Below, piece after piece: positions 2,435 through 19,464 of a stretch of 64,000 nucleotides of DNA. The DNA lies in the NCBI GenBank assembly GCA_000433475.1, contig HF993102.1, positions 23,806 to 87,805 on the forward strand. The letters are read 5' to 3'. Every line of letters starts with the position of its first letter. Position 1 is the stretch's first letter. The stretch is from Mycoplasma sp. CAG:956 (GTDB lineage Bacteria > Bacillota_I > Bacilli_A > RF39 > UBA660). The notes under the pieces were generated by a model. That model saw only the letters and a list, made by a program, of their open reading frames with translations, ran no database searches and was not told where the DNA came from. Made by a program: the position numbers and the translations under genes.

Positions 2435-4294
2435 CTATAGACTTTTTCTAGTAGAATCAGTATAAGATACATTAGCATTTCTGGTATTGTTTAACCCACG
2501 GTTATAAATAATTTGTGGATAATTTCTAAAAGCCTTATCTAAATCAAGATTCTTAGAATAGCCTTTAAGAAAAGCATTGTCACTTACTTGATGAATACCA
2601 AAATTGGTTACATACTCAGGCATCTTTAAGTTATCAATATTAGTTGATTTTGAAAAATAAATTTTTTCTCCAAATTTAGAATTAGAAGAATATTTTCCAT
2701 ATCTAGCTATCCAAGTATCAATGCCAAAGATACCACCATCTTCTGTTTTAAAGGGGCGAAGATAATCTTTAACACAAGCATCTCCAGTATAAAGCATTAC
2801 ATAATAACCGGCTTCTTGTAGTAAACGGATGGTTTCCATGATGGCTTTATAGGCATCAGAATTTTTCCCATGTTCTTTTAAATCATTTAAAATTCTCTTA
2901 CAATCAGCAATATCTTCAATATCCAAAGCAATAGGCATAAAAGTATAATAGCCAAGAGACTCTAAGTACCTTAAATATTGAATTATTTTTTTCGTTTCGG
3001 TATTTGCTTCAGAAACATTTCTTGCTGATGGAAAATAATAATAACCTGCTACTACATTATTAGCTCTTAAAATCTCAATATTTTTTGTAAAGTTAGCATC
3101 AACACTAGGATTATTAGCAAGACAGTTACCTATACGGTTATAAACAAAACGAATGTTTGGATTAGCTTGTAAAACTTTATTTAAATCCATTGTATCTTGG
3201 TGTTTTGAAATATCAATCCCATACACATGACCATTTCTAGCAATTTGTTCGTTCCAATCTGATATGCTTTTAACAGGAATATCACTTTTAGCATCAATAT
3301 TATCTTCATAATCTAATTTTTCTTCAGTTATAGAAATAGTGCTACTATCAGGTAAATATATTGTTTCACCAGGATTAATTGCTGAAGTACCATTAACATA
3401 TAAAATATCTTCTGGATAAATTCCTAATCTAGAGGCTAAATCTTCTATGGTTTCACTGTCACCTAATTTATACTTTTTATAGATATCCATATCAGTAGCA
3501 ACAAGAACTTTATCACCTGGTTGATAATAAGATGGATAAGTTATACCGTTTAAACTTTCAAATAAAGGGATAGACATACCAAATTTCAAGCATATATCAT
3601 CAATATTTTCAAAGTTTTTAACAATATATCCTTTAATATTATTTTTAACGGCTAAAGTTAAAATATCTCCTTCTTTGATACTGTTAATATTTTTTAAATT
3701 AGGATTTAATTCTTTTATCTTATCAATATCACAGCCAAAAGTAGTACTGATACCAGAAATAGTATCGCCAGATTTAATTATATAATTTATTTCATAAAAC
3801 TCTTTTTTTATCTTAGGAACATTTAAAATTAAACCAGGATATATTTTATCTGGGTTAGAAATAGCTTGGCTATTTAAGGCAATCAAGTCTTCTAAACTTA
3901 TGTTATGACTTTTAGCAATACTAGTTAAATTATCACCTGGTTCTACGATATAATCTTCATAAAGTTCTTCATCTAGTTTTATCATCGGAACCTTAATAAT
4001 TGTATCAATTAAAATATTGTTTTCATCTTTTATGTCAGGATTCATTTCTAAAATCGTTTCAACAGTAGTTTGATAATCTTTGGCAATTTGCCATAAAGTA
4101 TCACCAGATTTAATCTTTATTTCAATAATTTCACGAATATTACCATCTTTGTCAACATAAGTTGAACCTATTTCGTATTTTTTCTTACAACCAGTAAGGC
4201 TTAGTATAACGGGTGCTACCGCTACTACCTTCAAAAAATCACGACGTGATATTTTAAGTCTATTATTTTCTTTTATTTCTTCTTTCATAACCAA
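2435..4294 (-). CDS. Lipoprotein with multiple LysM repeats and a C-terminal GH25 muramidase (lysozyme) domain; probable autolysin
   Basis: Lipobox 'LTGCKK'. Repeated LysM-like units (SGDTLWQIAKDY..., PGDNLTSIAKSHNISLEDLIALN, SGDTISGISTTFG...). GH25-type 'YGIDISKHQ' region near the C-terminus. Confidence 0.7.
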   Translation of the reverse strand: MVMKEEIKENNRLKISRRDFLKVVAVAPVILSLTGCKKKYEIGSTYVDKDGNIREIIEIKIKSGDTLWQIAKDYQTTVETILEMNPDIKDENNILIDTIIKVPMIKLDEELYEDYIVEPGDNLTSIAKSHNISLEDLIALNSQAISNPDKIYPGLILNVPKIKKEFYEINYIIKSGDTISGISTTFGCDIDKIKELNPNLKNINSIKEGDILTLAVKNNIKGYIVKNFENIDDICLKFGMSIPLFESLNGITYPSYYQPGDKVLVATDMDIYKKYKLGDSETIEDLASRLGIYPEDILYVNGTSAINPGETIYLPDSSTISITEEKLDYEDNIDAKSDIPVKSISDWNEQIARNGHVYGIDISKHQDTMDLNKVLQANPNIRFVYNRIGNCLANNPSVDANFTKNIEILRANNVVAGYYYFPSARNVSEANTETKKIIQYLRYLESLGYYTFMPIALDIEDIADCKRILNDLKEHGKNSDAYKAIMETIRLLQEAGYYVMLYTGDACVKDYLRPFKTEDGGIFGIDTWIARYGKYSSNSKFGEKIYFSKSTNIDNLKMPEYVTNFGIHQVSDNAFLKGYSKNLDLDKAFRNYPQIIYNRGLNNTRNANVSYTDSTRKSL

Positions 4295-6677: not shown

Positions 6678-7778
6678 TTATATTTTATTACTTTTACCCT
6701 GATTACATCTTTGACACAATGTTTGTAAATTAGACATGGTTGTTTTACCACCCTTGGAGACTGGAATAATATGGTCGACTTGTAATTTTATACCATCTTT
6801 TACTGTAGCTCCACACATTTTGCAAGTGAAATGATCTCTTTTTAGTACTTCATATCTTAGAGTCGACGTTATTTTGTTTCTTTCTCTTTTTATCGTTTCG
6901 CAATACTTTTTGCCATTTAACCATTCATTATAAATATTTAGTATTTGCTTCCAAGTAATTATGCCAATATTTTTATACCAAACAGCACCATTATAGGCAT
7001 GATAAGTAATAGTAATTTTAACATTTAATAATAAATTTTCTTTTTGGTATATTAATGAAGATATTATTCTTTTTTCAAGTCTTTGATAGAAAAAGCGATT
7101 CTTTTTACCTACAAAATCAGAATTATTTAATAAAATTTTATTAAGTTCTTCTTTGTAATTTTTTAAATTTTGAAGATCTAGTATAGTATTTTCTATTGAC
7201 TTTCGAAGACAATTAATATCATTTTCAATATAATATCTAATAACTTCTTCTTTAGTAATATTATTAAATTTTCTTTTAGAAGATACTTGCTCTTTGATGG
7301 TTATAGTGTTTGTCTTGTTATTAAATTGATATTTATTATTTAATTCTTTTATTTTAATAGCTTTAGTACTGATTAATATTAGTTTTTTATAATAATTAAA
7401 TATATTTTTAATAATAAAAATGTAAATAATAATTGGTAGAATAAATGCGATGATATTTAAATCATTTGTAAATTCATTATTAAGTTTTAATATATAGTTA
7501 AGAATACTTATTACTTGATAATTAAACACCCATATTAATAAAAAGATAAGAACTTTTTTAGCTTTTGACATATAAATTATGTTTTCTAGGATGCTAATTT
7601 TAGTCATTGCTGGTTTTAAAATAAAGACATAGATAATACTAGGTAATAGAAAAAGAATAAGGCTAATATTTTTGACTAATAAAGAATCTAAACCTATGGA
7701 TTGTAAACTATAATATGATATATAGAAAGCAATATAGCTGATTAAAATTAGTAATATATTTTTTTGATATTTGGACAT
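6678..7778 (-). CDS. Polytopic membrane protein with C-terminal HNH endonuclease domain
   Basis: About 4 N-terminal TM helices. C-terminal 'HFTCKMCG...VDHIIPVSKGGKTTMSNLQTLCQRCNQGK' (HNH with CxxC...CxxC zinc knuckle). Confidence 0.6.
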   Translation of the reverse strand: MSKYQKNILLILISYIAFYISYYSLQSIGLDSLLVKNISLILFLLPSIIYVFILKPAMTKISILENIIYMSKAKKVLIFLLIWVFNYQVISILNYILKLNNEFTNDLNIIAFILPIIIYIFIIKNIFNYYKKLILISTKAIKIKELNNKYQFNNKTNTITIKEQVSSKRKFNNITKEEVIRYYIENDINCLRKSIENTILDLQNLKNYKEELNKILLNNSDFVGKKNRFFYQRLEKRIISSLIYQKENLLLNVKITITYHAYNGAVWYKNIGIITWKQILNIYNEWLNGKKYCETIKRERNKITSTLRYEVLKRDHFTCKMCGATVKDGIKLQVDHIIPVSKGGKTTMSNLQTLCQRCNQGKSNKI

Positions 7779-7809
7779 AATATCACCTTATTCTTCTTTT
7801 AATATAGTT

Positions 7810-10363: not shown

Positions 10364-11794
10364 CTATTTTTTTAATTTTCTAGTGTAATAATTATTAATG
10401 ATATCTTCTAAACTTACTTGATAATTTACCATTATATCTTTGCTACTCATACTAAATAAAGGATTTAAAAGTCCATTAATTGTAACTGGTAGATTATTTG
10501 CTTTTAAATAAGCTATTTTACTAGCTAGTTCAATAAAGGAGATTCTTTTAAGAATTACTTGATTTAAAGAAGTGTCGATATCATTTTCTATTGCAATATT
10601 TAATACTGCTTTATAATTAGCTTTTAAAGGCCAGATTAGTCCCATTTTAGTTAATAGAATTGCATTTTTTCCTAAGGGATTAGCGGAGTGTTCAAAATTA
10701 TATAACCATTTATATAGTTCTATTTTACCATTTGGACTATATGTATAACCATCATCGGTTTTAAAACCAGATGGTACCATTAAATTACCATAATAATCAT
10801 GATAAGCTTTTAAATAGGGATAAATTTCAGCAAAACGAATCTGAATTTTCCAAATCATTTCGATTTTATTTAATAAGGCTACTTTTTCTTTATCTAAGGC
10901 TTGCTTACAAGTACTATTGTTATTAGGATTTAAATAATTTTTATATTTTTTACGTTGAGAATTAATCCAATAACCTAAGTTTACTAGATTACCATCACTA
11001 TCAAAATAAGAATAAGTTGCTGGAACTTTTAAGTCACCATGGATATCATAATATTTAGCAGCTTCCTTATACATTTTCATCCAATAATAGTCATAGTCAG
11101 CAAAATTTGTTATAGAGATTTTTACTAAAGCTTCTCTTTGTTCTATAGTTAAATCACTATTTTTATCTAAAAATTTGGCTTTATTATTTAATAACCATTC
11201 ATAAGCATTAAATTTTTTGCCGTTAGATAAGGACATATCGTAATCTTTTGGCATGTCTAAGCTACCATTAACTTTCAAATAATCTAAAATAGCATTATAC
11301 TTAAGGAGCCAATTTTGTTCATTAAGAGGAAGCCAGTTAATACCTAGTTCTTCTAAAAGAGAGATTCTTTCGTCACTTAAATGCCATCTGGTATTTTTTA
11401 ACTTAGATATGCCTTTGGCATTACGATAATTGTTTCTTTGATTAATTAACCAACGTCCTAAATAATAGGATTTACCATCAATTTTTTCTACATAACTTTG
11501 TTTTATATTTAAATTACCATGAGATTCTTTATACTTTTTAGCTAAAGAGTACATAAAAAGCCATTCATCTTCTAATGGATGCCAAGATATATTTAAATGT
11601 TCTAACATTTTAATTTCTTCATCTGTTAGTTTATTATTACGATATTTATTACGTTGTGCGTTTATATAGCAGCCTAAATTAACTACTCTACCATCTTTGG
11701 TAGTAACCTTATAATTAATAGGAATATTAATATCTTGATGTTCATTATAATACTCTACTAATAAATCATAGTAAAATTGTAAATTATAATTCAT
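10364..11794 (-). CDS. Protein composed of about 5 tandem helicase-associated (HA, PF03457-like) domain repeats plus a C-terminal module
   Basis: Repeating 'W...Y..L..Y....G.L.VP......G..LG.W...QR......L....I..L..IG..W' units. Confidence 0.65.
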   Translation of the reverse strand: MNYNLQFYYDLLVEYYNEHQDINIPINYKVTTKDGRVVNLGCYINAQRNKYRNNKLTDEEIKMLEHLNISWHPLEDEWLFMYSLAKKYKESHGNLNIKQSYVEKIDGKSYYLGRWLINQRNNYRNAKGISKLKNTRWHLSDERISLLEELGINWLPLNEQNWLLKYNAILDYLKVNGSLDMPKDYDMSLSNGKKFNAYEWLLNNKAKFLDKNSDLTIEQREALVKISITNFADYDYYWMKMYKEAAKYYDIHGDLKVPATYSYFDSDGNLVNLGYWINSQRKKYKNYLNPNNNSTCKQALDKEKVALLNKIEMIWKIQIRFAEIYPYLKAYHDYYGNLMVPSGFKTDDGYTYSPNGKIELYKWLYNFEHSANPLGKNAILLTKMGLIWPLKANYKAVLNIAIENDIDTSLNQVILKRISFIELASKIAYLKANNLPVTINGLLNPLFSMSSKDIMVNYQVSLEDIINNYYTRKLKK

Positions 11795-11797
11795 TTT

Positions 11798-14700
11798 TTA
11801 CCTCCTAACAAGATTCATTCTATTTTGATATTTTATAATTAGTTCCTCTAGAGAAACATTATATTCATTTTTTAAATCTATACTACTCATGGTAAATATA
11901 GGATTTATTTCATTTTCGCTTTCTAAGTGTAATTTATTATCAAGGCAAAAACATATTTTAGCATTTAATTCTAAAAAAGAATATCTATTTATAATGTTTT
12001 TAAATAACTTATTAGAAAGATGATAATAATTACATAGATTAAAATTATTAATATGATTATCACTTTTATTCCAAATCATCCCTATTTTATTTAAAAGTTC
12101 AATTTGTAAGGAATTTAATTTGTTATCTTGATAATCTATCTGTTGTTTATGATACCAACTTCCTAGAGCTACACTTTTTCCTTTAGCATCATATGTTTTA
12201 TAAGCAATAACTATTGCTAGATTTTTATTAGTTAAATAATATTCTTTAGCATAGTTATACATTCTAAGCCACTCTAAACTTAAATTAAGCCAAGATATCT
12301 TTAAATTTTCAAATATTTTAATTTCTTCTTCCGGTAATTTATTTTCCCAATAAAGTTGTCTTTGTTGTTCTACCCATTGATATAAATTAAATTCACCTGT
12401 AGAAATAATAGCTTTATAATTTGATTCAACTAGTAAATTACCATATGTATTATAGTAATCTCTAGCAGCATTTAATTTTTCGTTCCATAATGAATCAGCA
12501 TTTTGCAATTTTATACCTATCATTTGTAATTTAGCTATCTCTTCATTAGTTAATTTGCCAGTAAGAAATTTATCTTTTTGTTTTTGAAGCCAGTTACCAA
12601 TATTTATAGTAATATTATCATCATAAGCTACCTCATAATCTAAAGGAATATCTAAAGTACCATATTTTTCTTTATATTTAATAACTTCTTGATAATTAAA
12701 TTGCCATTCTTCTTCTTTTGAAAGATGAAGTTTCCAAACCATATTAATGCTATCTAAGGCTTTAATTTGAAAGTCACTTAAGCTATTTGCTTTTTTTCTT
12801 TTTCTTTGGATATAAAGCCAATAACCGAGATAGACTTCTTCGTTATAGAATCCAGTAACGGTCTTGGTAAAACCTAAATCAAGATTATGATAAGTATTGG
12901 CATATTTCTTAGCTATAACAAAGTTATACCACCATAGATCATACTGATATAAATCTTTTTTATCGGGTGGTAAAAGAGCTGATATATTACCTTCTTTAAT
13001 AGCTTGATACCATTTTTTGGCTATAAGTTCATTTGCAGTAGTACGATAGTGCTTAGAAGTTTGACTCCAAATCATATCTATACTATCTAAAGCTTTGATT
13101 TGTTCTTTAAATAAGCCACCACTCGTTTCTCGCCTTTTTTGACTAGTTAGCCAAGTTGTTAAGTTAAAATCTTCATCGTAATAGCCTTTTACTATCTCGT
13201 TTTTATTAGGACATAAACAGCCATATTTTTGATAATATTGGTAAGCAAGACTAAACTGATACCACCATAAATCAAAGAAAGACAACATAGCTTTTGAAGC
13301 TGGTAAAATCTTTTTAACATTATTATTTTTGATGGCTTCTAACCATTTACTGGCAATTGAATAATTAGCTTCATCAGGTTTCAAAGTCTTATTAGCAATG
13401 CTATTAAAAGCCTTTCTTTGATATTCATTTAAACTATTTTTATTATTACGATTAGCTTGACGCATTAACCAACTTCCAACATAAAATGGTTCGTTATAGA
13501 ATCCTAACATTAGTTGATTACTTGAGATATTTAAAACGATATTTTCAGTTAAATATTTTTTAGCAAGAGCAAAATTATACCACCAAATGTCAAAGTAACT
13601 TAATTTTCCTTTATCATCAGGTAAAAGTGATTTAACATTATTATTTTTAATAGCTTCTAACCATTTGACAGCAGCTATATCAGCCCTATTTTCTATTTCT
13701 GATTTATCTTTTTCTATCCTATCTAATTGGTACCAATTAGAACAAATATTATTTAGAGCTTCTAATTTATAAGGTTCTAACTGATTACTTAGATATTTTA
13801 ATCTTTGATGACGATACCACCTGTCTATTATAACATCTTCACCATAGTAACCTTTAACTGTCAATTCATAGTACATAGCTAAATTACCATGTTCTTGATA
13901 AAATTTTTTTAACAAAGCTAGGTTATACCACCAAAGATTAAGATTATCTAATGATTCTTTATTTTTTGGTAAAATACTTTTAATATCAGCATTTAAAATA
14001 GCATCCTGCCATTTTTTATTTACAGAATCGATATAACTTTTAGTCTTTTTTTCCCAAATAATGCCGATATTATCAAGAGCTTGAATTTGCTTATCAGATA
14101 ATTTATCTTTTTGGCGGTTTTTTTGACAACTAAGCCAAATTCCTAAATTAACGATTTCACCATAGTAGCCAGTAGTTTTATAGCTTTGGGAAAAATCCAG
14201 GTTATGATGTTCTTGGTAATAAGTTCTAGCTAAAGAATATTTATACCACCATAAGTCATTTAAGTTTAAGCAATCTCTACTAATAGGTAAAATACTTTGA
14301 ACACTATTATTTTTAAATGCTTTTAACCATCTATCAGCTATTATGTTTTTAATATCGTTTTCATCTTTTTGCCAGATTATCTCTAATTTTTCTAAATAAG
14401 TAATTTGACGTTTAGATAACATATTATTTCTTTTTCTAGCTATTTGAGCATTAATCCAGGCACTTAAAGAGACATTCTTTCCATAATAATCAATGATAGT
14501 TTGATTAGACTTTAGATTAATATTTTTCTTTTCTTCATAACATTTTTTAACTAATAAATAATTATACCACCAAATTTCATAGCGAGTTAAATATTCTTTT
14601 TTTAAGGGAAGAGCACTTCTAATATCATTTATTTCAAACATTTGAAACCAACAGTTAATTAGTTGGTGACCAGTTATTTTAGCCTTTTTTTCATTTAAAA

Positions 14701-15037
14701 GTCCAATATTTTTTAAAAATACTATTTTATCTTCTTCTAAGAGATTATTTTGAAATCTAAATATTTGAATATCTAGCCAACTTTTTAAGTTGGTTTGTTC
14801 GTTATAAGCTCCTATTATGTTAGTGTTATTAAAAATTTGTCCTTTATTTAATAAAGTAAGGTGATTTATAATTAGTCCTAAGTTATACCACCATAATTTT
14901 TCAAGATTTAATTCATCTTTTATTGCTGGTAAGTTTTGAGCTAATTTAACATCACTATTAAGACTTGTTTGTACCATAATTACATTTCCCCCCCTTAAAT
15001 GTAAAAATATACTATCACTTTTATTTACAAAATGCAA
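11798..15037 (-). CDS. Large protein of about 10 tandem HA-domain repeats (roughly 110-aa super-repeat) with the same C-terminal module as 10364..11794
   Basis: Seven 'LWWYN(F/L)ALAKKYY..H.NL...' super-repeats followed by three shorter HA units. The likely true start is the ATG at 14977 behind 'AGGGGGGGAAA'; the track start at 15037 is TTG. Confidence 0.65.
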   Translation of the reverse strand: MHFVNKSDSIFLHLRGGNVIMVQTSLNSDVKLAQNLPAIKDELNLEKLWWYNLGLIINHLTLLNKGQIFNNTNIIGAYNEQTNLKSWLDIQIFRFQNNLLEEDKIVFLKNIGLLNEKKAKITGHQLINCWFQMFEINDIRSALPLKKEYLTRYEIWWYNYLLVKKCYEEKKNINLKSNQTIIDYYGKNVSLSAWINAQIARKRNNMLSKRQITYLEKLEIIWQKDENDIKNIIADRWLKAFKNNSVQSILPISRDCLNLNDLWWYKYSLARTYYQEHHNLDFSQSYKTTGYYGEIVNLGIWLSCQKNRQKDKLSDKQIQALDNIGIIWEKKTKSYIDSVNKKWQDAILNADIKSILPKNKESLDNLNLWWYNLALLKKFYQEHGNLAMYYELTVKGYYGEDVIIDRWYRHQRLKYLSNQLEPYKLEALNNICSNWYQLDRIEKDKSEIENRADIAAVKWLEAIKNNNVKSLLPDDKGKLSYFDIWWYNFALAKKYLTENIVLNISSNQLMLGFYNEPFYVGSWLMRQANRNNKNSLNEYQRKAFNSIANKTLKPDEANYSIASKWLEAIKNNNVKKILPASKAMLSFFDLWWYQFSLAYQYYQKYGCLCPNKNEIVKGYYDEDFNLTTWLTSQKRRETSGGLFKEQIKALDSIDMIWSQTSKHYRTTANELIAKKWYQAIKEGNISALLPPDKKDLYQYDLWWYNFVIAKKYANTYHNLDLGFTKTVTGFYNEEVYLGYWLYIQRKRKKANSLSDFQIKALDSINMVWKLHLSKEEEWQFNYQEVIKYKEKYGTLDIPLDYEVAYDDNITINIGNWLQKQKDKFLTGKLTNEEIAKLQMIGIKLQNADSLWNEKLNAARDYYNTYGNLLVESNYKAIISTGEFNLYQWVEQQRQLYWENKLPEEEIKIFENLKISWLNLSLEWLRMYNYAKEYYLTNKNLAIVIAYKTYDAKGKSVALGSWYHKQQIDYQDNKLNSLQIELLNKIGMIWNKSDNHINNFNLCNYYHLSNKLFKNIINRYSFLELNAKICFCLDNKLHLESENEINPIFTMSSIDLKNEYNVSLEELIIKYQNRMNLVRR

Positions 15038-15050
15038 ATATTTTTTGAGT

Positions 15051-15097
15051 AAAAAAAGATAATAACGAAATTACTATTTCAGTAACTAATTATTATC
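15051..15097 (-). terminator. rho-independent terminator downstream of ileS
   Basis: GATAATAA...TTATTATC stem with inner TTACT/AGTAA stem, followed by U7 on the minus strand. Confidence 0.6.
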
Positions 15098-15109
15098 TTT
15101 TTAAAATAA

Positions 15110-18100
15110 TTATTCAGCACTAGTTATACTTAAAGTACAATCTTCGCCATTAATGTCATAGTGATTTTCACTTTCTTCTAAAGTTAGATTGTTTGCTAAA
15201 GTTTCTGACTTAATAAAATCAGCATATTTAGTAAAGCATTCAACAATCTTATCTGAACCACTATAAGTAACATTGATATGGTCTTGAATATCTAAATCCA
15301 TTTCTTTACGCATGTTTTGTAGTTTAGAAACGATTTCTCTTGCCATACCTTCAAGTAATAATTCATCAGTTAAAGTTGTATCTAAAATAACAAAATCACG
15401 ACCATTCATGGCAACATCAAAGCCTTCTTTTGCCTCAATACGAACATCTATCATATTACTAGTGATAATTAAATCTTTATCTTGGAAAGTAACATTTAAT
15501 TCTTCTTTATTATTTAACTTTAGTTTATCTTCTTCACTTAAATTTAATAATAATTCTTGGTAAGCTTTAATATCTTTGCCAAACATAGAACCAGCTACTC
15601 TAAAGTTAGGTTTAATAGTTAAGTTCATATATTTACTTAAATCTTTAGTAAATTCTAGATTTTTAACATTTAATTCTTCGGTAATAAGATTAGTTAAATC
15701 GCCTAGTAAGTCTTCTAATTTACCATCAATAATAACAGTTGCAAGAGGAATTCTTACTTTGATTTTGCTATCTTCTCTGGCATTACGTCCTAGAGATATT
15801 AAGTCTCTTACTTTATCCATTTTTTCTTCAATAGTAGAGTTAATATATTCTTCGTTAACTACTGGATAATTACTTAAATGAACTGATTCTTCATTTGTTA
15901 AATTACGGTACATTTCCTCAGAAATATAAGGACAAATTGGAGCAATTAGTTTAGATAAGCCTACTAAGACATCATAAGTAGTTTTGTAAACAGCCTTTTT
16001 ACTAGTTGTAAGATGACTATCCCAGAAACGATTACGATTACGACGAATATACCAGTTAGATAGGTCTTCACAAACAAAGTCTGTTAAAAAGTGAACTACT
16101 TTATTTAAATCATATTCATCAAATGAAGCTCTAACATTTTTAACTAAAGTATTATATTTAGAAAGTAACCATTTATCAATTAAGTCTAGGTCTTCGTATT
16201 TAACATTACATTCATCAGTATCTATTTTATCAGCATTAGCATACATAACAAAGAAATTGTAAGTATTTTTAAGAGGGTTAAAAAACTTAGAATGAACTTC
16301 TTTTAAACCATCAAATGAGAACTTAAGTGGTGTCCATACTGGTGAAACATAAGGTAAGTAGAATCTTACTTCATCAGCACCATATTCTTCGATAGTCTTG
16401 AAAGGCTCAACGATATTGCCACGGGATTTACTCATCTTTTTACCTTCACCGTCTAATAGTAAGTCATTTACTAAAACATTACGGTAAGGAGCATGCCCCA
16501 TTACAAAGGTAGAAATAACCATTAAAGTGTAGAACCAACCTCTAGTTTGGTCAATTCCTTCACAAATAAAGTCAGCTGGGAATTGTGTTTCAAATAATTC
16601 TTTATTTTCAAATGGATAATGATATTGAGCAAATGGCATAGAACCAGAATCAAACCAACAGTCTAAAACATCAGGAATACGTTCCATAGCACCACCACAC
16701 TCTGGACAAGTTAGATGGACTGTATCAATATATGGTTTATGTAAATCAAAGTCTTCTGGTAATTTTTCGATGCTACGATTTCTTAATTCTTCGATACTTC
16801 CTAACATTTCATTGTGACCACAACTACATTTGAAGAATGGAATTGGTGAACCCCAGAAACGGCTACGGGAAATATTCCAGTCTTTAGCATTACTTAACCA
16901 GTTAGCAAATCTTTTTTCGCCAACATAATCAGGATACCAGTTAACTTCTTTATTAGCTTCTACTAATTTTTCTTTAAAAGCTGATACCTTAATATAATAA
17001 CTAGGCATAGTATAATAAATTAATGGAGTATGGCATCTCCAGCAATGTGGATAGTCATGGGTTATTTTTTGCTTTCTAAATAATTTATTATTTTCTTTTA
17101 AGTAAGCAATAACATCATCAGTACAATCGAAAACAAATTTACCAGCCCAAGGTCCTTCTGTATAACAGCCGTCTTTGCCAACTGGATTAACAATTGGCAC
17201 CCCGTAACGGTTACAAACATTGGCATCATCAACTCCGAAAGCACCAGCCATATGAACAATACCAGTACCATCAGAAGCCGTAACGTATTCATCACACATA
17301 ACAAAGAATGCTTTACCTTCCACTTTTAACTCTGGAATTAATTGCTCATATTCAGTAAATTCTAAGGATTTTCCTTTGAATTTTTCTAAAATTTCAACTT
17401 TTTTATCTTGAAAAACACTAGTAATCAAGCTTTCAGCTACAATATACTTAAGTCCATCTACTAAGACTTTTACATATTCCATATTTGGATTAACACAAAG
17501 ACCTACATTTGCAAGTAAAGTCCAAGGTGTAGTTGTCCAAGCTAGAAAATAAGTATCACTATTTTTTATCTTAAAAGGTACATATAAAGTAGTTGCTGTC
17601 TCAGATACATATTCTTGAGCAACTTCATGGGTAGCAAGCCCAGTACCGCAGTGAGGGCAATAAGGCACTACTCTAGTTCCTTCATAAAAGTATCCCTCAT
17701 CAAAGAATTTCTTTAAAATCCACCATTCTGTTTCAATATACTCATTTTTATAAGTTAAATATGGATGGTCAACATCAATAAATTGACCCATTTTACTAGT
17801 TAGTCTAGTGAAAGCTGCTTCGTTTTCAGCAACACTATTACGGCATTCTTGATTAAATTTATCAACACCAAGTTCTAGAATTTCTTTCTTTGAAGAGATA
17901 CCTAATTTCTTCTCTACATGGTTTTCAATAGGTAGGCCATGAGTATCCCAACCTACTTTTCTTAAAACTTTTTTACCATTCATGGCATGATATTTGCAAA
18001 TTGAGTCTTTTAGGTTTTTAGCAACCATATGGTGAAGTCCTGGAAAACCATTAGCAAATGCTGGTCCATCATAGAAAACAAAAGTATCGCAATCTTTATG

Positions 18101-18301
18101 AACTTCATTTTGACGATTTAAAATATTAACGATGCCACCCCAACTTTGCAAAATGTCATTTTCTACAACACTAGTTGGTCTTTTGTCTAAATTTTTAAAA
18201 TTTTTCATACATTTTCCTCCCAAATATTTGATAAAAAAAGAAAAAATCCCATAACATAAGGGCGAATTACCGCGGTACCACCTTATTTTATGAGATATCA
18301 T
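15110..18301 (-). CDS. ileS: Isoleucine--tRNA ligase (long, about 1030 aa form)
   Basis: Class I aaRS with HMGH-like and KMSKS ('KMSKSRGN') motifs and zinc knuckles. The true start is probably the ATG at 18208 (MKNFKNLDK...) behind GGAGGAAAATGT; the upstream part of the track ORF is the T-box leader. Confidence 0.95.
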   Translation of the reverse strand: MISHKIRWYRGNSPLCYGIFSFFIKYLGGKCMKNFKNLDKRPTSVVENDILQSWGGIVNILNRQNEVHKDCDTFVFYDGPAFANGFPGLHHMVAKNLKDSICKYHAMNGKKVLRKVGWDTHGLPIENHVEKKLGISSKKEILELGVDKFNQECRNSVAENEAAFTRLTSKMGQFIDVDHPYLTYKNEYIETEWWILKKFFDEGYFYEGTRVVPYCPHCGTGLATHEVAQEYVSETATTLYVPFKIKNSDTYFLAWTTTPWTLLANVGLCVNPNMEYVKVLVDGLKYIVAESLITSVFQDKKVEILEKFKGKSLEFTEYEQLIPELKVEGKAFFVMCDEYVTASDGTGIVHMAGAFGVDDANVCNRYGVPIVNPVGKDGCYTEGPWAGKFVFDCTDDVIAYLKENNKLFRKQKITHDYPHCWRCHTPLIYYTMPSYYIKVSAFKEKLVEANKEVNWYPDYVGEKRFANWLSNAKDWNISRSRFWGSPIPFFKCSCGHNEMLGSIEELRNRSIEKLPEDFDLHKPYIDTVHLTCPECGGAMERIPDVLDCWFDSGSMPFAQYHYPFENKELFETQFPADFICEGIDQTRGWFYTLMVISTFVMGHAPYRNVLVNDLLLDGEGKKMSKSRGNIVEPFKTIEEYGADEVRFYLPYVSPVWTPLKFSFDGLKEVHSKFFNPLKNTYNFFVMYANADKIDTDECNVKYEDLDLIDKWLLSKYNTLVKNVRASFDEYDLNKVVHFLTDFVCEDLSNWYIRRNRNRFWDSHLTTSKKAVYKTTYDVLVGLSKLIAPICPYISEEMYRNLTNEESVHLSNYPVVNEEYINSTIEEKMDKVRDLISLGRNAREDSKIKVRIPLATVIIDGKLEDLLGDLTNLITEELNVKNLEFTKDLSKYMNLTIKPNFRVAGSMFGKDIKAYQELLLNLSEEDKLKLNNKEELNVTFQDKDLIITSNMIDVRIEAKEGFDVAMNGRDFVILDTTLTDELLLEGMAREIVSKLQNMRKEMDLDIQDHINVTYSGSDKIVECFTKYADFIKSETLANNLTLEESENHYDINGEDCTLSITSAE

Positions 18302-18445
18302 ACACTCTTACTTTTAACGCAAGTTAAACGGCTATAAGCACATCGAAAAGTGATTTGAAATAAACTAATTTACTGCCTTTCACCAAATGACAGCTCTCTT
18401 TGAAATATCATTTATTTCCGTCTTTTTTCATCTGATTTACTGTTT
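18215..18445 (-). promoter_or_regulatory. T-box riboswitch leader of ileS
   Basis: Conserved T-box 'AAGGUGGUACCGCGG' (plus 18270-18284). Antiterminator AAGG/CCUU + 7-nt UGGUACC bulge + GCG/CGC. U-tract follows. Candidate AUC-A specifier upstream. Confidence 0.7.
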
Positions 18446-18528: not shown

Positions 18529-19464
18529 TTATTTTGTAATCGAACCGTTGATTTTCTTTAAATATATTAATCTTTTAATTGGTGCTTTTAACTGACTGAT
18601 ACTTCGTTTACTTAAGTAATAGTGGGGTTTAATATAATCTTTATAATAGTATTCTCTTAAACTATTTAATGCTGATGTACTTCTTAGAATAAACAAGCAA
18701 TTTTCTAAGATATGTTCTACTCCGACATCAGTTATATTAGCTATTTTAGCAATCTGTCTTTTAGTTAGTGGCTCTTCAATGCCAAGTCCATAATACATCT
18801 TAAATATTTTTTGATAATTTAAAGGTATATATTTATTAATGATAGTAAGAATATCTTGAGTTTCATAATAATCATCATCACCTATTTTTACGTCTTCTGT
18901 TGTAATTTTAGTATCAACGTAATTTTTTCTATTTACTAAGCCTATTATTCTTCTCATTCCCTTAATATCAATATTAAATTTAGAAGCTAGTTCTAAACAA
19001 TCAAGTTCTTTAGTATTACCAGCTTCTAAGTCATTTAAATATTTTAAATATAAAAAGACTATATAATCAAAATTATCACCAACTTTAGCAGTTGTATGAT
19101 TTAAACTAATTTCTTTATTAATATTTTTAATTATATAAAAATAAACTGAATTATTTATATTACCAGACTTAAATTTTTTTATTCCTTCAATAAAACCATT
19201 TACGGCTGCCATGGCAACATCATTTAAATCAATACCTTCTATATTGTAATTAAAAACTATAGAAAGAATGAATGGATAATAATATTTAACAAGTATAGTT
19301 AAAGCTCTTTTATTGTTTTGCTTAGCAAGTTCTACTAGTTTTAATAATTTTTCAGAAGGAATCTTAGAATATTTTAAATCTCTTAAGCTATTTAGATTAT
19401 TTATATCAATGTTATCAAATTTTTCAACTATTATTTCTAATTCTTTTAGTTCTTCATTAGTCAT
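18529..19464 (-). CDS. Divergent sigma-70-family-like protein (311 aa)
   Basis: Region-2-like 'LVKYYYPFILSIVFNY...GIDLNDVAMAAVNGFIEGIKKFK...YFYIIKNINKEI' and a C-terminal HTH-like 'LTKRQIAKIANITDVGVEHILENCLFILRS'. Very divergent. Confidence 0.4.
   Translation of the reverse strand: MTNEELKELEIIVEKFDNIDINNLNSLRDLKYSKIPSEKLLKLVELAKQNNKRALTILVKYYYPFILSIVFNYNIEGIDLNDVAMAAVNGFIEGIKKFKSGNINNSVYFYIIKNINKEISLNHTTAKVGDNFDYIVFLYLKYLNDLEAGNTKELDCLELASKFNIDIKGMRRIIGLVNRKNYVDTKITTEDVKIGDDDYYETQDILTIINKYIPLNYQKIFKMYYGLGIEEPLTKRQIAKIANITDVGVEHILENCLFILRSTSALNSLREYYYKDYIKPHYYLSKRSISQLKAPIKRLIYLKKINGSITK

What the first reader, a model, noticed from the sequence alone, without database searches (positions are those of the whole stretch)
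10364..15037. Tandem pair of proteins built almost entirely from helicase-associated (HA) domain repeats, sharing a distinct C-terminal module
Two adjacent minus-strand genes (476 aa and about 1060 aa) consist of about 5 and about 10 copies of a 65-70-aa unit. The unit matches the HA domain (PF03457) usually found as 1-2 copies C-terminal to helicases.

In the large protein the units are organised as seven near-identical 110-aa super-repeats (LWWYN.ALAKKYY.EH.NL......V.G.Y.E.V.LG.WL..Q.......L...QI.AL..IG.IW) followed by three shorter HA units. Both proteins end in a related C-terminal module of about 70 aa (R.SF.EL..KI..L..N.L......NP.F.MSS.D....Y.VSLE..I..Y), which suggests gene duplication and repeat expansion.

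There is no helicase, signal peptide or TM segment. The module has its own promoter and sits between a secreted transglutaminase-like protein and ileS. Such HA-only repeat arrays are essentially uncharacterised. Candidate roles include a nucleic-acid-binding scaffold or a sporulation or chromosome-organisation factor.
Basis: partly seen in the sequence, partly recalled or inferred. Interest (0 to 1): 0.6.

Follow-up and report, generated by a model that had tools for sequence, protein, structure and literature searches.

The report
Helicase-less HA-repeat protein pair
Two adjacent genes of the human-gut bacterium 'Mycoplasma sp. CAG:956' encode cytoplasmic proteins with 5 and 10 copies of the small, probably DNA-binding 'helicase-associated' (HA) domain plus an undescribed end-cap domain; they are real, evolve unusually fast, and have no known function.

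Summary
Gene A (10364-11794, minus strand, 476 aa) has 5 HA units plus a 91-aa C-terminal module (CT). Gene B (11798-14977, minus strand, 1059 aa, not the 1079-aa TTG ORF) has 10 HA units plus the same module. Pfam PF03457 scores are E=6e-50 and 5e-78. Seven units of B are spaced about 107 aa apart by a B-specific 40-aa linker, but these super-repeats are only 25-47% identical, not near-identical.

There is no helicase domain, signal peptide or TM segment, and both proteins have pI 9. B is deposited as 'helicase' (CCY88707.1), which is a misnomer.

New findings:
- CT is a compact six-helix domain (AF2 pLDDT 91.5) with no Pfam or PDB relative. It caps HA arrays in at least 340 protein clusters, including SF2-helicase-HA-CT proteins.
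- The pair is syntenic in 10 related loci, with 3 or 6 linker copies in B.
- It evolves 6-20 times faster than its neighbours (A 56% and B 40% identical, against ileS 96%), still under purifying selection.
- It sits behind an invariant promoter block.

Best reading: helicase-less, probably DNA-binding HA arrays. The biological role is unknown. Interest is moderate.

The parts
11798..14977 (-). Gene B: a 1059-aa HA-array protein, 100% identical to CCY88707.1, which is deposited as 'helicase [Mycoplasma sp. CAG:956]'.
   Evidence: ORF. P0035 is 1059 aa and 98% identical. P0213 is 100% identical. Pfam HA gives E=4.6e-78.
12743..14902 (-). Super-repeat region of B. Seven HA units are spaced 106-116 aa apart and separated by six B-specific linkers of about 40 aa (KWLEAIKNNNVKSILP motif).
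   Evidence: Unit HMM. Alignment and 25-47% pairwise identity. The linker HMM hits only B orthologues. There is no DNA tandem repeat.
12080..12715 (-). Three contiguous HA units of B (units 8-10). Together with units 6-7 and the CT module they are collinear with all of protein A.
   Evidence: for the units; BLASTP of B against A.
11801..12079 (-). C-terminal cap module (CT) of B, 93 aa.
   Evidence: Alignments. The CT profile search found 340 cluster representatives at E<=1e-3.
10364..11794 (-). Gene A: a 476-aa protein with 5 HA units plus CT. Its AGGAGG ribosome-binding site (11801-11806) lies at the 3' end of B, immediately before B's TAA stop codon (11798-11800).
   Evidence: The AF2 model has mean pLDDT 81.6, and each unit folds as helix, beta-hairpin, helix, helix.
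10640..11791 (-). HA array of A: five units at residues 2-68, 75-151, 159-227, 235-312 and 319-385.
10367..10639 (-). C-terminal cap module (CT) of A, 91 aa. It is a compact six-helix domain with a small hairpin.
   Evidence: AF2 gives pLDDT 91.5 and pTM 0.82. No Pfam match. No PDB sequence match. No relation to HA.
15009..15039 (-). Promoter of the B-A operon: -35 TTGCAT (15037-15032), a 17-nt spacer, and an extended -10 TGA-TAGTAT (-10 hexamer at 15014-15009). It lies in a block with 24 consecutive invariant bases that contains the inverted repeat TTTGCA-N3-TGTAAA.
   Evidence: Sequence. Alignment of 7 species. The 24-mer occurs once in the window (0 expected by chance) and once per locus in 10 loci, always upstream of B.
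15051..15100 (-). AT-rich hairpin followed by a T-run. This is the intrinsic terminator of ileS and separates ileS from the B-A operon.
   Evidence: Sequence. The hairpin is conserved, with arm changes, in relatives. The simple terminator scan did not call it because it requires G+C-rich stems.

Best explanation
A and B are a co-transcribed pair of soluble, basic, all-helical cytoplasmic proteins. They consist of arrays of the HA domain, the small three-helix domain of PDB 2KTA, which its authors' title reports as DNA-binding. Each array is closed by a conserved six-helix C-terminal cap domain (CT).

They are helicase-less relatives of a wider protein class with the layout SF2 helicase (ResIII/DEAD) - HA array - CT. 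B arose from an A-like gene (5 HA units plus CT) by N-terminal expansion of a 'linker plus HA' unit.

The most likely mode of action is as stand-alone nucleic-acid (most likely DNA) binding arrays:
- Each HA unit would contact the nucleic acid through its conserved second helix (LGxW[LI]xxQ[RK]xxY[KR]).
- Many weak units in series would provide avidity or an extended footprint.
- CT would act as a common terminal module, either for partner binding or self-association (possibly A with B) or as a further nucleic-acid contact.

The fast divergence, the changing unit number and the multi-gene families of HA-only proteins in related gut Bacilli suggest that whatever they recognise changes quickly.

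Shown: domain composition, architecture, operon structure, conservation, evolutionary rates and the helicase-HA-CT relatives.

Inferred: nucleic-acid binding, the role of helix 2 and the role of CT.
For: **Domain identity and fold**
- HA identity: Pfam E=6e-50 and 5e-78. The unit profile hits 2KTA, annotated 'Putative helicase', at E=4.6e-5.
- The title of the 2KTA paper says the structure 'indicates domain binding to DNA' (reference 64 in PMC12191111).
- HA domains are also fused to PLD nucleases and to TniQ target selectors, where a DNA-recognition role is assumed.
- In the AF2 model of A every unit folds as helix, hairpin, helix, helix (pLDDT 81.6).
- CT is a separate confident fold (pLDDT 91.5, pTM 0.82).

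**CT module distribution**
- The CT profile finds 340 cluster representatives at E<=1e-3 and 171 at E<=1e-10. The module is almost always at the extreme C-terminus.
- It is preceded by 1-10 HA units in most full-length hits.
- In the large proteins a ResIII/DEAD helicase lies N-terminal to the array (P0076, P0120, P0126, P0169, P0056, P0151, P0196).

**Physical properties**
- Both proteins have pI 9.0 and are hydrophilic, with no TM segment or signal peptide.

**Conservation within units**
- Helix 2 carries the best-conserved polar residues: W42, Q46, R47, Y50 and K51.
- A hypervariable face lies beside them at positions 41, 44, 45 and 48.

**Operon and promoter**
- The AGGAGG ribosome-binding site of A lies at the 3' end of B, immediately before B's stop codon.
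- The promoter block is invariant in 10 loci.

**Real, selected genes**
- Synteny is conserved in 10 loci.
- dN/dS is 0.18 for A and 0.24 for B at unsaturated distance.

**Fast evolution**
- dN is 0.37 for A, against 0.005-0.057 for ileS, rpsT, the transglutaminase-like gene, SpoIIP and PGM in the same genome pair.
Against: - No direct evidence of nucleic-acid binding exists for these proteins. The 2KTA paper could not be read, so only its title is used.
- The positive charge is modest, and several units are acidic (B units 8 and 9 have pI 4.5-4.6).
- The relative arrangement of units is not predicted with confidence (pTM 0.44), so no DNA-wrapping geometry can be claimed.
- Helical repeat arrays often bind proteins rather than nucleic acids.
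- No helicase partner is present in the 64-kb window. Only A and B carry HA or CT.
- CT has no recognisable relative that would indicate its function.
Confidence: 0.4

Rival explanations
1. The proteins are genome-conflict factors. The HA arrays would act as fast-evolving sensors or decoys for foreign DNA from phages or mobile elements. This would be analogous to HA domains serving as the target-recognition part of PLD nucleases and helicases. It is compatible with DNA binding but assigns a specific biological role.
For: - A and B evolve 6-20 times faster than their flanking genes.
- B differs in unit number between related species: 3 or 6 linker copies.
- Other gut Bacilli carry tandem families of 3-4 HA-only genes.
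- Some HA-only genes lie next to defence-like genes: ResIII/SLFN helicase, MazG-like and ApeA-HEPN in L020, and an SF1 helicase plus a TerB_N protein in L012.
- HA domains are fused to PLD nucleases related to END defence nucleases.
Against: - There are no PADLOC or PHROG matches.
- No relatives were found in viral contigs with the CT patterns.
- The locus is a stable housekeeping neighbourhood (ileS, rpsT), syntenic in 10 loci, with no effector (nuclease, toxin or NTPase) next to it.
- dN/dS is well below 1.
- Within the species the proteins are 97-100% identical.
Confidence: 0.15
2. The proteins are RNA-binding or translation-associated factors. The HA arrays would bind rRNA, tRNA or mRNA rather than DNA. 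The helicases that carry HA-CT tails would then be RNA helicases.
For: HA-only genes in these Bacilli repeatedly follow translation genes:
- ileS, here and in 10 related loci.
- infC-rpmI-rplT.
- hisS-aspS-HA-prfA-prmC.
- tsf.
- tilS.

DEAD/ResIII cores occur in both DNA and RNA helicases. The fold of CT has its only topologically sensible PDB match in an mTERF protein, and mTERFs bind DNA or RNA.
Against: - The B-A operon is insulated from ileS by a terminator and has its own promoter.
- Translation genes are a large share of small genomes, so the adjacency may be chance. No statistics were possible.
- The other contexts are unrelated to translation: hrcA-grpE-dnaK, folD and LemA.
- Fast evolution is atypical for core translation factors.
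- The one experimental hint for HA concerns DNA.
Confidence: 0.15
3. The proteins are pure protein-protein interaction scaffolds. They would be helical repeat proteins of the TPR or ankyrin type that organise other proteins without binding nucleic acid.
For: - The architecture is an all-helical repeat. The positions conserved across units are mostly hydrophobic core (W4, Y8, Y14, L21, L39, W42, L55, L63, I66), and the surfaces are variable.
- The unit profile gives weak hits to designed TPR proteins.
- Net charge is modest.
Against: - The TPR hits cover only about 20 residues and rest on a YY/Y-rich helix.
- HA is consistently fused to DNA-acting enzymes: helicases, PLD nucleases and TniQ.
- Polar residues in helix 2 (Q46, R47, K51) are conserved.
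Confidence: 0.15
4. The proteins are secreted or surface repeat proteins, such as S-layer or cell-wall-binding proteins. Alternatively they are decaying, non-functional repeat DNA.
For: - Surface alternative: the repeats are numerous and N/K/Y-rich, and a neighbouring gene encodes an exported transglutaminase-like protein.
- Decay alternative: in one lineage B is split by a frameshift.
Against: - There is no signal peptide or TM segment.
- Pfam assigns the repeats to HA, not to SLH, CWB or LysM.
- Both reading frames are intact across species, dN/dS is 0.18-0.24, and the promoter is invariant.
Confidence: 0.02

Closest known systems
HA (helicase-associated) domain, Pfam PF03457; solved example BVU_0683(627-691) of Bacteroides vulgatus, PDB 2KTA
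   Same: - The same roughly 65-aa unit: Pfam E=6e-50 and 5e-78, and the unit profile hits 2KTA at E=4.6e-5.
- The helix-2 motif NLGxWxxxQRxxxKxGKL aligns residue for residue.
   Different: - The 2KTA chain is deposited as 'Putative helicase' and Pfam names the domain 'helicase associated'; here there is no helicase.
- The domain is multiplied to 5 and 10 copies and makes up nearly the whole protein.
- The units here carry a beta-hairpin insert between helices 1 and 2 in the AF2 model. A direct structural superposition was not possible.
SF2 helicase (ResIII/DEAD) - HA array - CT proteins of Firmicutes metagenomes (e.g. P0126 1089 aa, P0169 1154 aa, P0076 953 aa)
   Same: The C-terminal two-thirds have the same layout: 5-7 HA units closed by the same CT module (CT E-values 1e-13 to 1e-18).
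   Different: - A and B lack the helicase core entirely.
- B has a lineage-specific 40-aa linker that these proteins lack.
- These helicases are themselves uncharacterised.
HA-only proteins annotated 'Helicase associated domain protein' in Firmicutes MAGs (e.g. P0010-P0021; the gene clusters in L017 and L021)
   Same: - They are made of HA repeats only (4-9 units) and occur in low-GC gut Bacilli.
- They sit in chromosomal housekeeping neighbourhoods.
   Different: - Most of these lack the CT module.
- They are only 26-35% identical to A.
- None has the super-repeat of B.
mTERF repeat proteins (human MTERF1, PDB 3MVB)
   Same: - MTERF1 is the only topologically sensible fold match of CT: TM-score 0.56 (normalised to the query), rmsd 3.8 A over 78 columns, 22% identity.
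- The CT consensus (ELxAKIxYL...P...L..IFxMSS....YGISLExLI) resembles the mTERF motif. This resemblance is from my own knowledge, not a test.
   Different: - The Foldseek E-value is 7 and the probability 0.18, so the match is not significant.
- The Pfam mTERF model is not matched at E<=10 by any of 10 CT sequences.
- There is no PDB sequence hit.
- This is a lead only, not evidence of membership.
Modular helical-repeat nucleic-acid binders (TALE, PUF, PPR) - an analogy of principle only
   Same: - Tandem small helical units.
- Unit number varies between relatives.
- Exposed helix positions are hypervariable.
   Different: - There is no homology.
- No one-unit-one-base code is known for HA.
- The inter-unit geometry is not predicted with confidence (pTM 0.44).

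Membership tests
HA domain family (Pfam PF03457) | Sequence match to the PF03457 model above its gathering score (28.4 bits). | tested here: met
   A scores 167.8 bits in 5 stretches and B scores 257.9 bits in 9 stretches. The home-built unit HMM finds 5 and 10 units.
HA domain family (Pfam PF03457) | A small unit of about 65 aa with three helices, homologous to the solved HA domain 2KTA. | tested here: met
HA domain family (Pfam PF03457) | Location C-terminal to an SF2 helicase core in the same polypeptide (the association that gave the domain its name). | tested here: not met
   Neither A nor B contains a ResIII, DEAD or Helicase_C domain. No other ORF in the window carries HA or CT. PriA and RecD2 lie elsewhere in the window and are unrelated. 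The deposited name 'helicase' for B (CCY88707.1) is therefore a misnomer.
HA domain family (Pfam PF03457) | DNA binding by the domain. | not testable with these tools
   Only the title of the 2KTA paper is available, through PMC12191111 reference 64. The paper itself is not held.
Helicase-HA-CT protein class (defined here by the CT profile) | A CT module at the extreme C-terminus, directly after an HA array. | tested here: met
   CT lies at A residues 386-476 and at B residues 967-1059. The same arrangement is seen in most of the 150 best hits.
mTERF family (for the CT module) | Match to the Pfam mTERF model or to mTERF sequences in the PDB. | tested here: not met
   No mTERF hit for 10 CT sequences at E<=10. 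The CT profiles find no mTERF chain in the PDB.
mTERF family (for the CT module) | An mTERF-like fold, i.e. repeats of two helices plus a short helix. | tested here: inconclusive
   Foldseek against 3mvb_O gives TMq 0.56 and rmsd 3.8 A over 78 columns, but E=7 and probability 0.18.
Secreted or cell-wall-binding repeat proteins (SLH, CWB, LysM, S-layer) | An N-terminal signal peptide or anchor, and a match to a wall-binding repeat family. | tested here: not met
   The N-termini are hydrophilic and the maximum hydropathy is 0.94 for A and 0.73 for B. Pfam finds only HA.
Known anti-phage defence systems (PADLOC) and phage protein families (PHROGs) | Match to any model of the library. | tested here: not met
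   No family at E<=0.01 for A, B or CT.

The most novel reading that the evidence does not exclude
HA arrays are a bacterial class of modular, evolvable sequence-reading DNA-binding repeats. Each unit would read a short stretch of DNA through the hypervariable face of helix 2 (positions 41, 44, 45, 48). Unit number and surface residues would be retuned quickly between species. The CT cap, possibly mTERF-like, would position or dimerise the array. The A-B pair would be a free-standing version of the targeting tail used by HA-helicases, PLD nucleases and TniQ. It might bind, among other sites, the invariant inverted-repeat-containing block in its own promoter.
Probability: 0.07. Interest if true: 0.8.

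Novelty: new variant of a known kind. Interest (0 to 1): 0.45.

Why it matters
The HA domain is widespread. It occurs in helicases, PLD nucleases and Tn7 TniQ target selectors, yet it is characterised by only one NMR structure. The pair described here is a clean natural 'HA-only' system: 5 and 10 units with no enzyme attached. That makes it a good substrate for asking what HA arrays bind.

The work also delimits a C-terminal cap domain that neither Pfam nor NCBIfam covers. It accompanies HA arrays in at least 340 protein clusters, including helicases. It could be added to domain databases, and it would correct annotations such as 'helicase' for CCY88707.1.

One contrast points to a rapidly changing ligand. 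The proteins evolve 6-20 times faster than their neighbours, while the promoter is invariant over 24 consecutive bases. That makes the pair a candidate for host-parasite or specificity-switching biology in poorly known gut Bacilli.

If the function proves to be ordinary non-specific DNA binding, the finding is a routine annotation improvement.

Tried and rejected
- **Foldseek of the whole A model against the PDB:** only noise (E>=1), as expected for beads on a string with pTM 0.44.
- **CT as a degenerate HA unit:** rejected by hhalign (probability 0.2%).
- **Pfam, PDB-sequence and NCBIfam searches for CT:** nothing credible.
- **DNA-level tandem repeats in B:** none, so the expansion is old.
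- **PHROGs, PADLOC and a viral-contig scan:** nothing.
- **Word-indexed search with the CT profile:** only 7 hits and little information.
- **Short 'CT-only' proteins in the hit list:** the one checked (L025) is a fragment behind a scaffold gap with an HA unit upstream. It is not a stand-alone gene and not a code-4 artefact. L024 may be a true small CT-like gene, but the match is weak.
- **The 499-aa 'B' of L007:** it is cut by the contig start and was disregarded.
- **The 2KTA paper:** could not be read.
- **Literature searches for HA-only proteins:** nothing relevant.
- **Generic promoter and terminator scan:** no more matches than in shuffled sequence. The promoter call rests on conservation instead.

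Full report
**Observation**

The region holds two adjacent minus-strand ORFs. Pfam assigns both to the HA domain PF03457 and to nothing else of significance. A (476 aa) scores E=6.2e-50 in five stretches. B scores E=4.6e-78 in nine stretches. NCBIfam has no model for either.

A unit HMM built iteratively from the two proteins finds five units in A, at residues 2-68, 75-151, 159-227, 235-312 and 319-385. It finds ten units in B. Per-unit E-values range from 1e-19 to 1e-30.

In B the first seven units start 106-116 residues apart. A roughly 40-aa linker with the motif KW[LY]xAIKNNxVKSILPxxKxxL precedes each of units 2-7. The last three units are contiguous.

Tandem Repeats Finder sees nothing at the DNA level. 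The expansion is therefore old.

Both proteins end in a shared module of about 91 aa.

**Gene boundaries and transcription**

The listed TTG start of B at 15037 is in fact the TTG of a -35 hexamer. The real start is ATG 14977, behind a GGGGGGG ribosome-binding site. This gives 1059 aa, the length of the database proteins P0035 and P0213.

The AGGAGG ribosome-binding site of A lies at the 3' end of B, immediately before B's stop codon, so the two genes form one operon.

Upstream, ileS carries a T-box leader at 18255-18440. It ends at 15110 and is followed by an AT-rich hairpin with a T-run. After that comes TTGCAT-17 nt-TGA-TAGTAT.

Aligning this intergenic region from seven related species shows a block with 24 consecutive invariant bases, ATTTGCATTTTGTAAATAAAAGTG. 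Near-invariant sequence continues down to the ribosome-binding site, while the flanks diverge. The 24-mer occurs once in the window, with none expected by chance. It occurs exactly once in each of ten related loci, always in front of B.

The claim of an own promoter therefore rests on conservation, not on the generic scan, which was no better than shuffled sequence.

**Organism and context**

Window B is 100% identical to CCY88707.1, deposited as 'helicase [Mycoplasma sp. CAG:956]' (taxid 1262908). This is a low-GC (27%) human-gut bacterium that uses the standard code and has sporulation genes such as SpoIIP.

The name 'helicase' is wrong. No helicase domain is present in A or B. No other ORF in the 64 kb carries HA or CT.

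The neighbourhood is housekeeping: a transglutaminase-like exported protein, rpsT, SpoIIP, ileS, phosphoglucomutase and PriA.

Both proteins are hydrophilic, have pI 9.0, and lack a signal peptide or TM segment.

**Relatives**

Orthologues of A (51-57% identical, 477-485 aa, always 5 HA units plus CT) and of B occur in the same synteny: ileS, B, A, then the convergent transglutaminase-like gene and rpsT. They are found in Hadza and other gut metagenomes and in seven 'uncultured Bacilli' MAGs.

B varies between lineages:
- 1059-1062 aa with 10 units and 6 linkers.
- 589-676 aa with 5-6 units and 3 linkers.
- In one lineage, a frameshifted 411 + 625 aa version.

The linker motif is confined to B orthologues.

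All of A aligns collinearly with the C-terminal half of B. This supports duplication of a '5 HA plus CT' ancestor followed by N-terminal expansion in B.

**Evolutionary rate**

The window was compared with locus L001:

| Gene | Amino-acid identity | dN | dS | dN/dS |
|---|---|---|---|---|
| ileS | 96% | 0.017 | 0.34 | 0.048 |
| rpsT | 99% | 0.005 | 0.079 | 0.061 |
| transglutaminase-like gene | 92% | 0.040 | 0.634 | 0.063 |
| PGM | 94% | 0.033 | 0.839 | 0.039 |
| SpoIIP | 89% | 0.057 | 0.804 | 0.070 |
| A | 56% | 0.37 | 1.1 (near saturation) | 0.33 |
| B (window against L002/L006/L008) | 40-42% | 0.52-0.55 | 1.0-1.2 | 0.43-0.55 |

Source.

At a less saturated distance (L002 against L006) dN/dS is 0.18 for A and 0.24 for B.

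The pair therefore evolves 6-20 times faster at the protein level than its neighbours, but it is clearly under purifying selection. Within the species the proteins are 97-100% identical.

Position-by-position analysis of the units gave three classes:
- A hydrophobic core conserved across all units: W4, Y8, Y14, L21, L39, W42, L55, L63 and I66.
- Conserved polar residues in helix 2: Q46, R47, Y50 and K51.
- A face of helix 2 that varies even between orthologues: positions 41, 44, 45 and 48.

**The HA unit**

A profile of the 15 units finds the single solved HA domain, 2KTA ('Putative helicase', 74 aa), at E=4.6e-5. The helix-2 motif aligns.

The paper describing that structure is cited in PMC12191111 as reference 64. 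Its title states that the structure 'indicates domain binding to DNA'. I could not read the paper itself.

HA is also reported fused to PLD nucleases and to TniQ.

AlphaFold2 on A with its five orthologues gives mean pLDDT 81.6. Each unit folds as helix, beta-hairpin, helix, helix. The pTM is only 0.44, so the mutual arrangement of units is undetermined.

**The C-terminal module (CT)**

CT has no Pfam match and no PDB sequence match, even with a 47-sequence profile. It shows no profile-profile relation to HA.

AF2 predicts a compact six-helix domain with a small hairpin, at pLDDT 91.5 and pTM 0.82.

Foldseek finds no significant PDB or viral match. The only hit with a sensible superposition is human MTERF1 (3mvb_O): TM 0.56 normalised to the query, 3.8 A over 78 columns, 22% identity, E=7. 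This agrees with my impression that the CT consensus resembles the mTERF motif. It remains a lead, not a result.

An exhaustive HMM search of 1.84 billion cluster representatives finds 340 proteins at E<=1e-3 and 171 at E<=1e-10. CT is almost always at the extreme C-terminus.

Re-scanning the 150 best hits gave the following:
- CT is preceded by 1-10 HA units in nearly all proteins long enough to tell.
- A few proteins have 2-3 CT copies interspersed in the array.
- The short 'CT-only' entries are at least partly assembly fragments.

The large members are ResIII/DEAD helicases followed by 5-7 HA units and CT.

CT is thus an undescribed domain that caps HA arrays. A and B are the helicase-less form of a helicase-HA-CT architecture.

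**Other HA-only genes**

In related uncultured gut Bacilli, HA-only genes mostly lack CT. They form tandem families of up to four genes after infC-rpmI-rplT.

They also sit at the ends of other housekeeping operons:
- hisS-aspS-HA-prfA-prmC.
- tsf-HA.
- tilS-HA.
- iPGM-HA-hrcA.

Two contexts look defence-like or mobile: L020 downstream genes and L012. I could not test whether the adjacency to translation genes exceeds chance.

**Interpretation**

Shown:
- Two intact, co-transcribed, conserved but fast-evolving genes for soluble basic proteins made of HA units plus a new cap domain.
- They are related by duplication and expansion.
- They are homologous in their tail architecture to HA-helicases.

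Inferred:
- They bind nucleic acid, most probably DNA, through helix 2 of each unit, with avidity from many units.
- CT provides a common terminal function: partner binding, self-association or a further nucleic-acid contact.

Confidence in this reading is about 0.4.

The rivals are:
- A role in conflict with foreign DNA (0.15). It fits the rate, the copy-number changes and the paralogue families. However, no effector, PADLOC hit or phage link was found.
- RNA- or translation-related binding (0.15). It rests on gene neighbourhoods only.
- A pure protein scaffold (0.15).
- A surface repeat protein or decaying DNA. This is excluded.

**Novelty and score**

The HA domain and 'HA domain proteins' are known database entities, so this is not a new kind of system.

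What is new:
- The delimitation of the CT cap domain and its link to HA-helicases.
- The B-specific linker super-repeat with variable copy number.
- The rate contrast with the neighbours.
- The invariant promoter block.

I rate it a new variant of a known kind, with interest 0.45. It is a good and tractable entry point to an uncharacterised domain, but without a demonstrated function or a surprising mechanism.

Noticed in passing
window 15009-15048 (-): The B-A promoter region is invariant over 24 consecutive bases (ATTTGCATTTTGTAAATAAAAGTG), including the whole spacer, in species whose A and B proteins are only 40-57% identical. It contains the inverted repeat TTTGCA-N3-TGTAAA overlapping the -35 hexamer. 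This looks like an operator for an unknown regulator, and autoregulation is conceivable.
   Followed up: partly
window 18529-19464 (-): A 311-aa ORF upstream of the ileS T-box has no Pfam match. By eye it is sigma-factor-like (a possible region-4 helix-turn-helix near residue 255). It is a second fast-evolving gene: 44% identity and dN/dS 0.40 against L001, where the neighbours are 89-99% identical.
   Followed up: partly
window 6678-7778 (-): This gene encodes a protein with hydrophobic N-terminal segments and a C-terminal HNH endonuclease domain. Window 6680-7784 has no counterpart in the otherwise collinear locus L001. It is probably a strain- or species-specific insertion between SpoIIP and the rpsT side.
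   Followed up: partly
window 18208-18440 (-): The listed ileS ORF starts at 18301, inside the T-box leader (18255-18440, 102 bits). The real start is most likely the Met at 18208 (MKNFKNL), giving 1032 aa as in L001.
   Followed up: yes
window 11798-14977 (-): The public record names this protein 'helicase' (CCY88707.1, Mycoplasma sp. CAG:956), although it has no helicase domain. The annotation was evidently propagated from the name of the HA domain.
   Followed up: yes
L001 6809-9996: In one Hadza-gut lineage the B orthologue is split by a frameshift into 411- and 625-aa ORFs. The two pieces are each recorded on 4 contigs (P0268, P0269). This is either a genuine disrupted allele or a recurrent assembly error.
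   Followed up: no
L017 5353-5871; L021 2936-3454: In other gut Bacilli ribosomal protein L20 carries a Rho_N domain (172 aa). It is followed by a cluster of three to four HA-only genes interspersed with small unknown ORFs.
   Followed up: no
window 2435-4294 (-): The LysM x3 - GH25 muramidase is also comparatively fast-evolving: 75% identity and dN/dS 0.22 against L001, compared with about 0.05 for the housekeeping neighbours.
   Followed up: no
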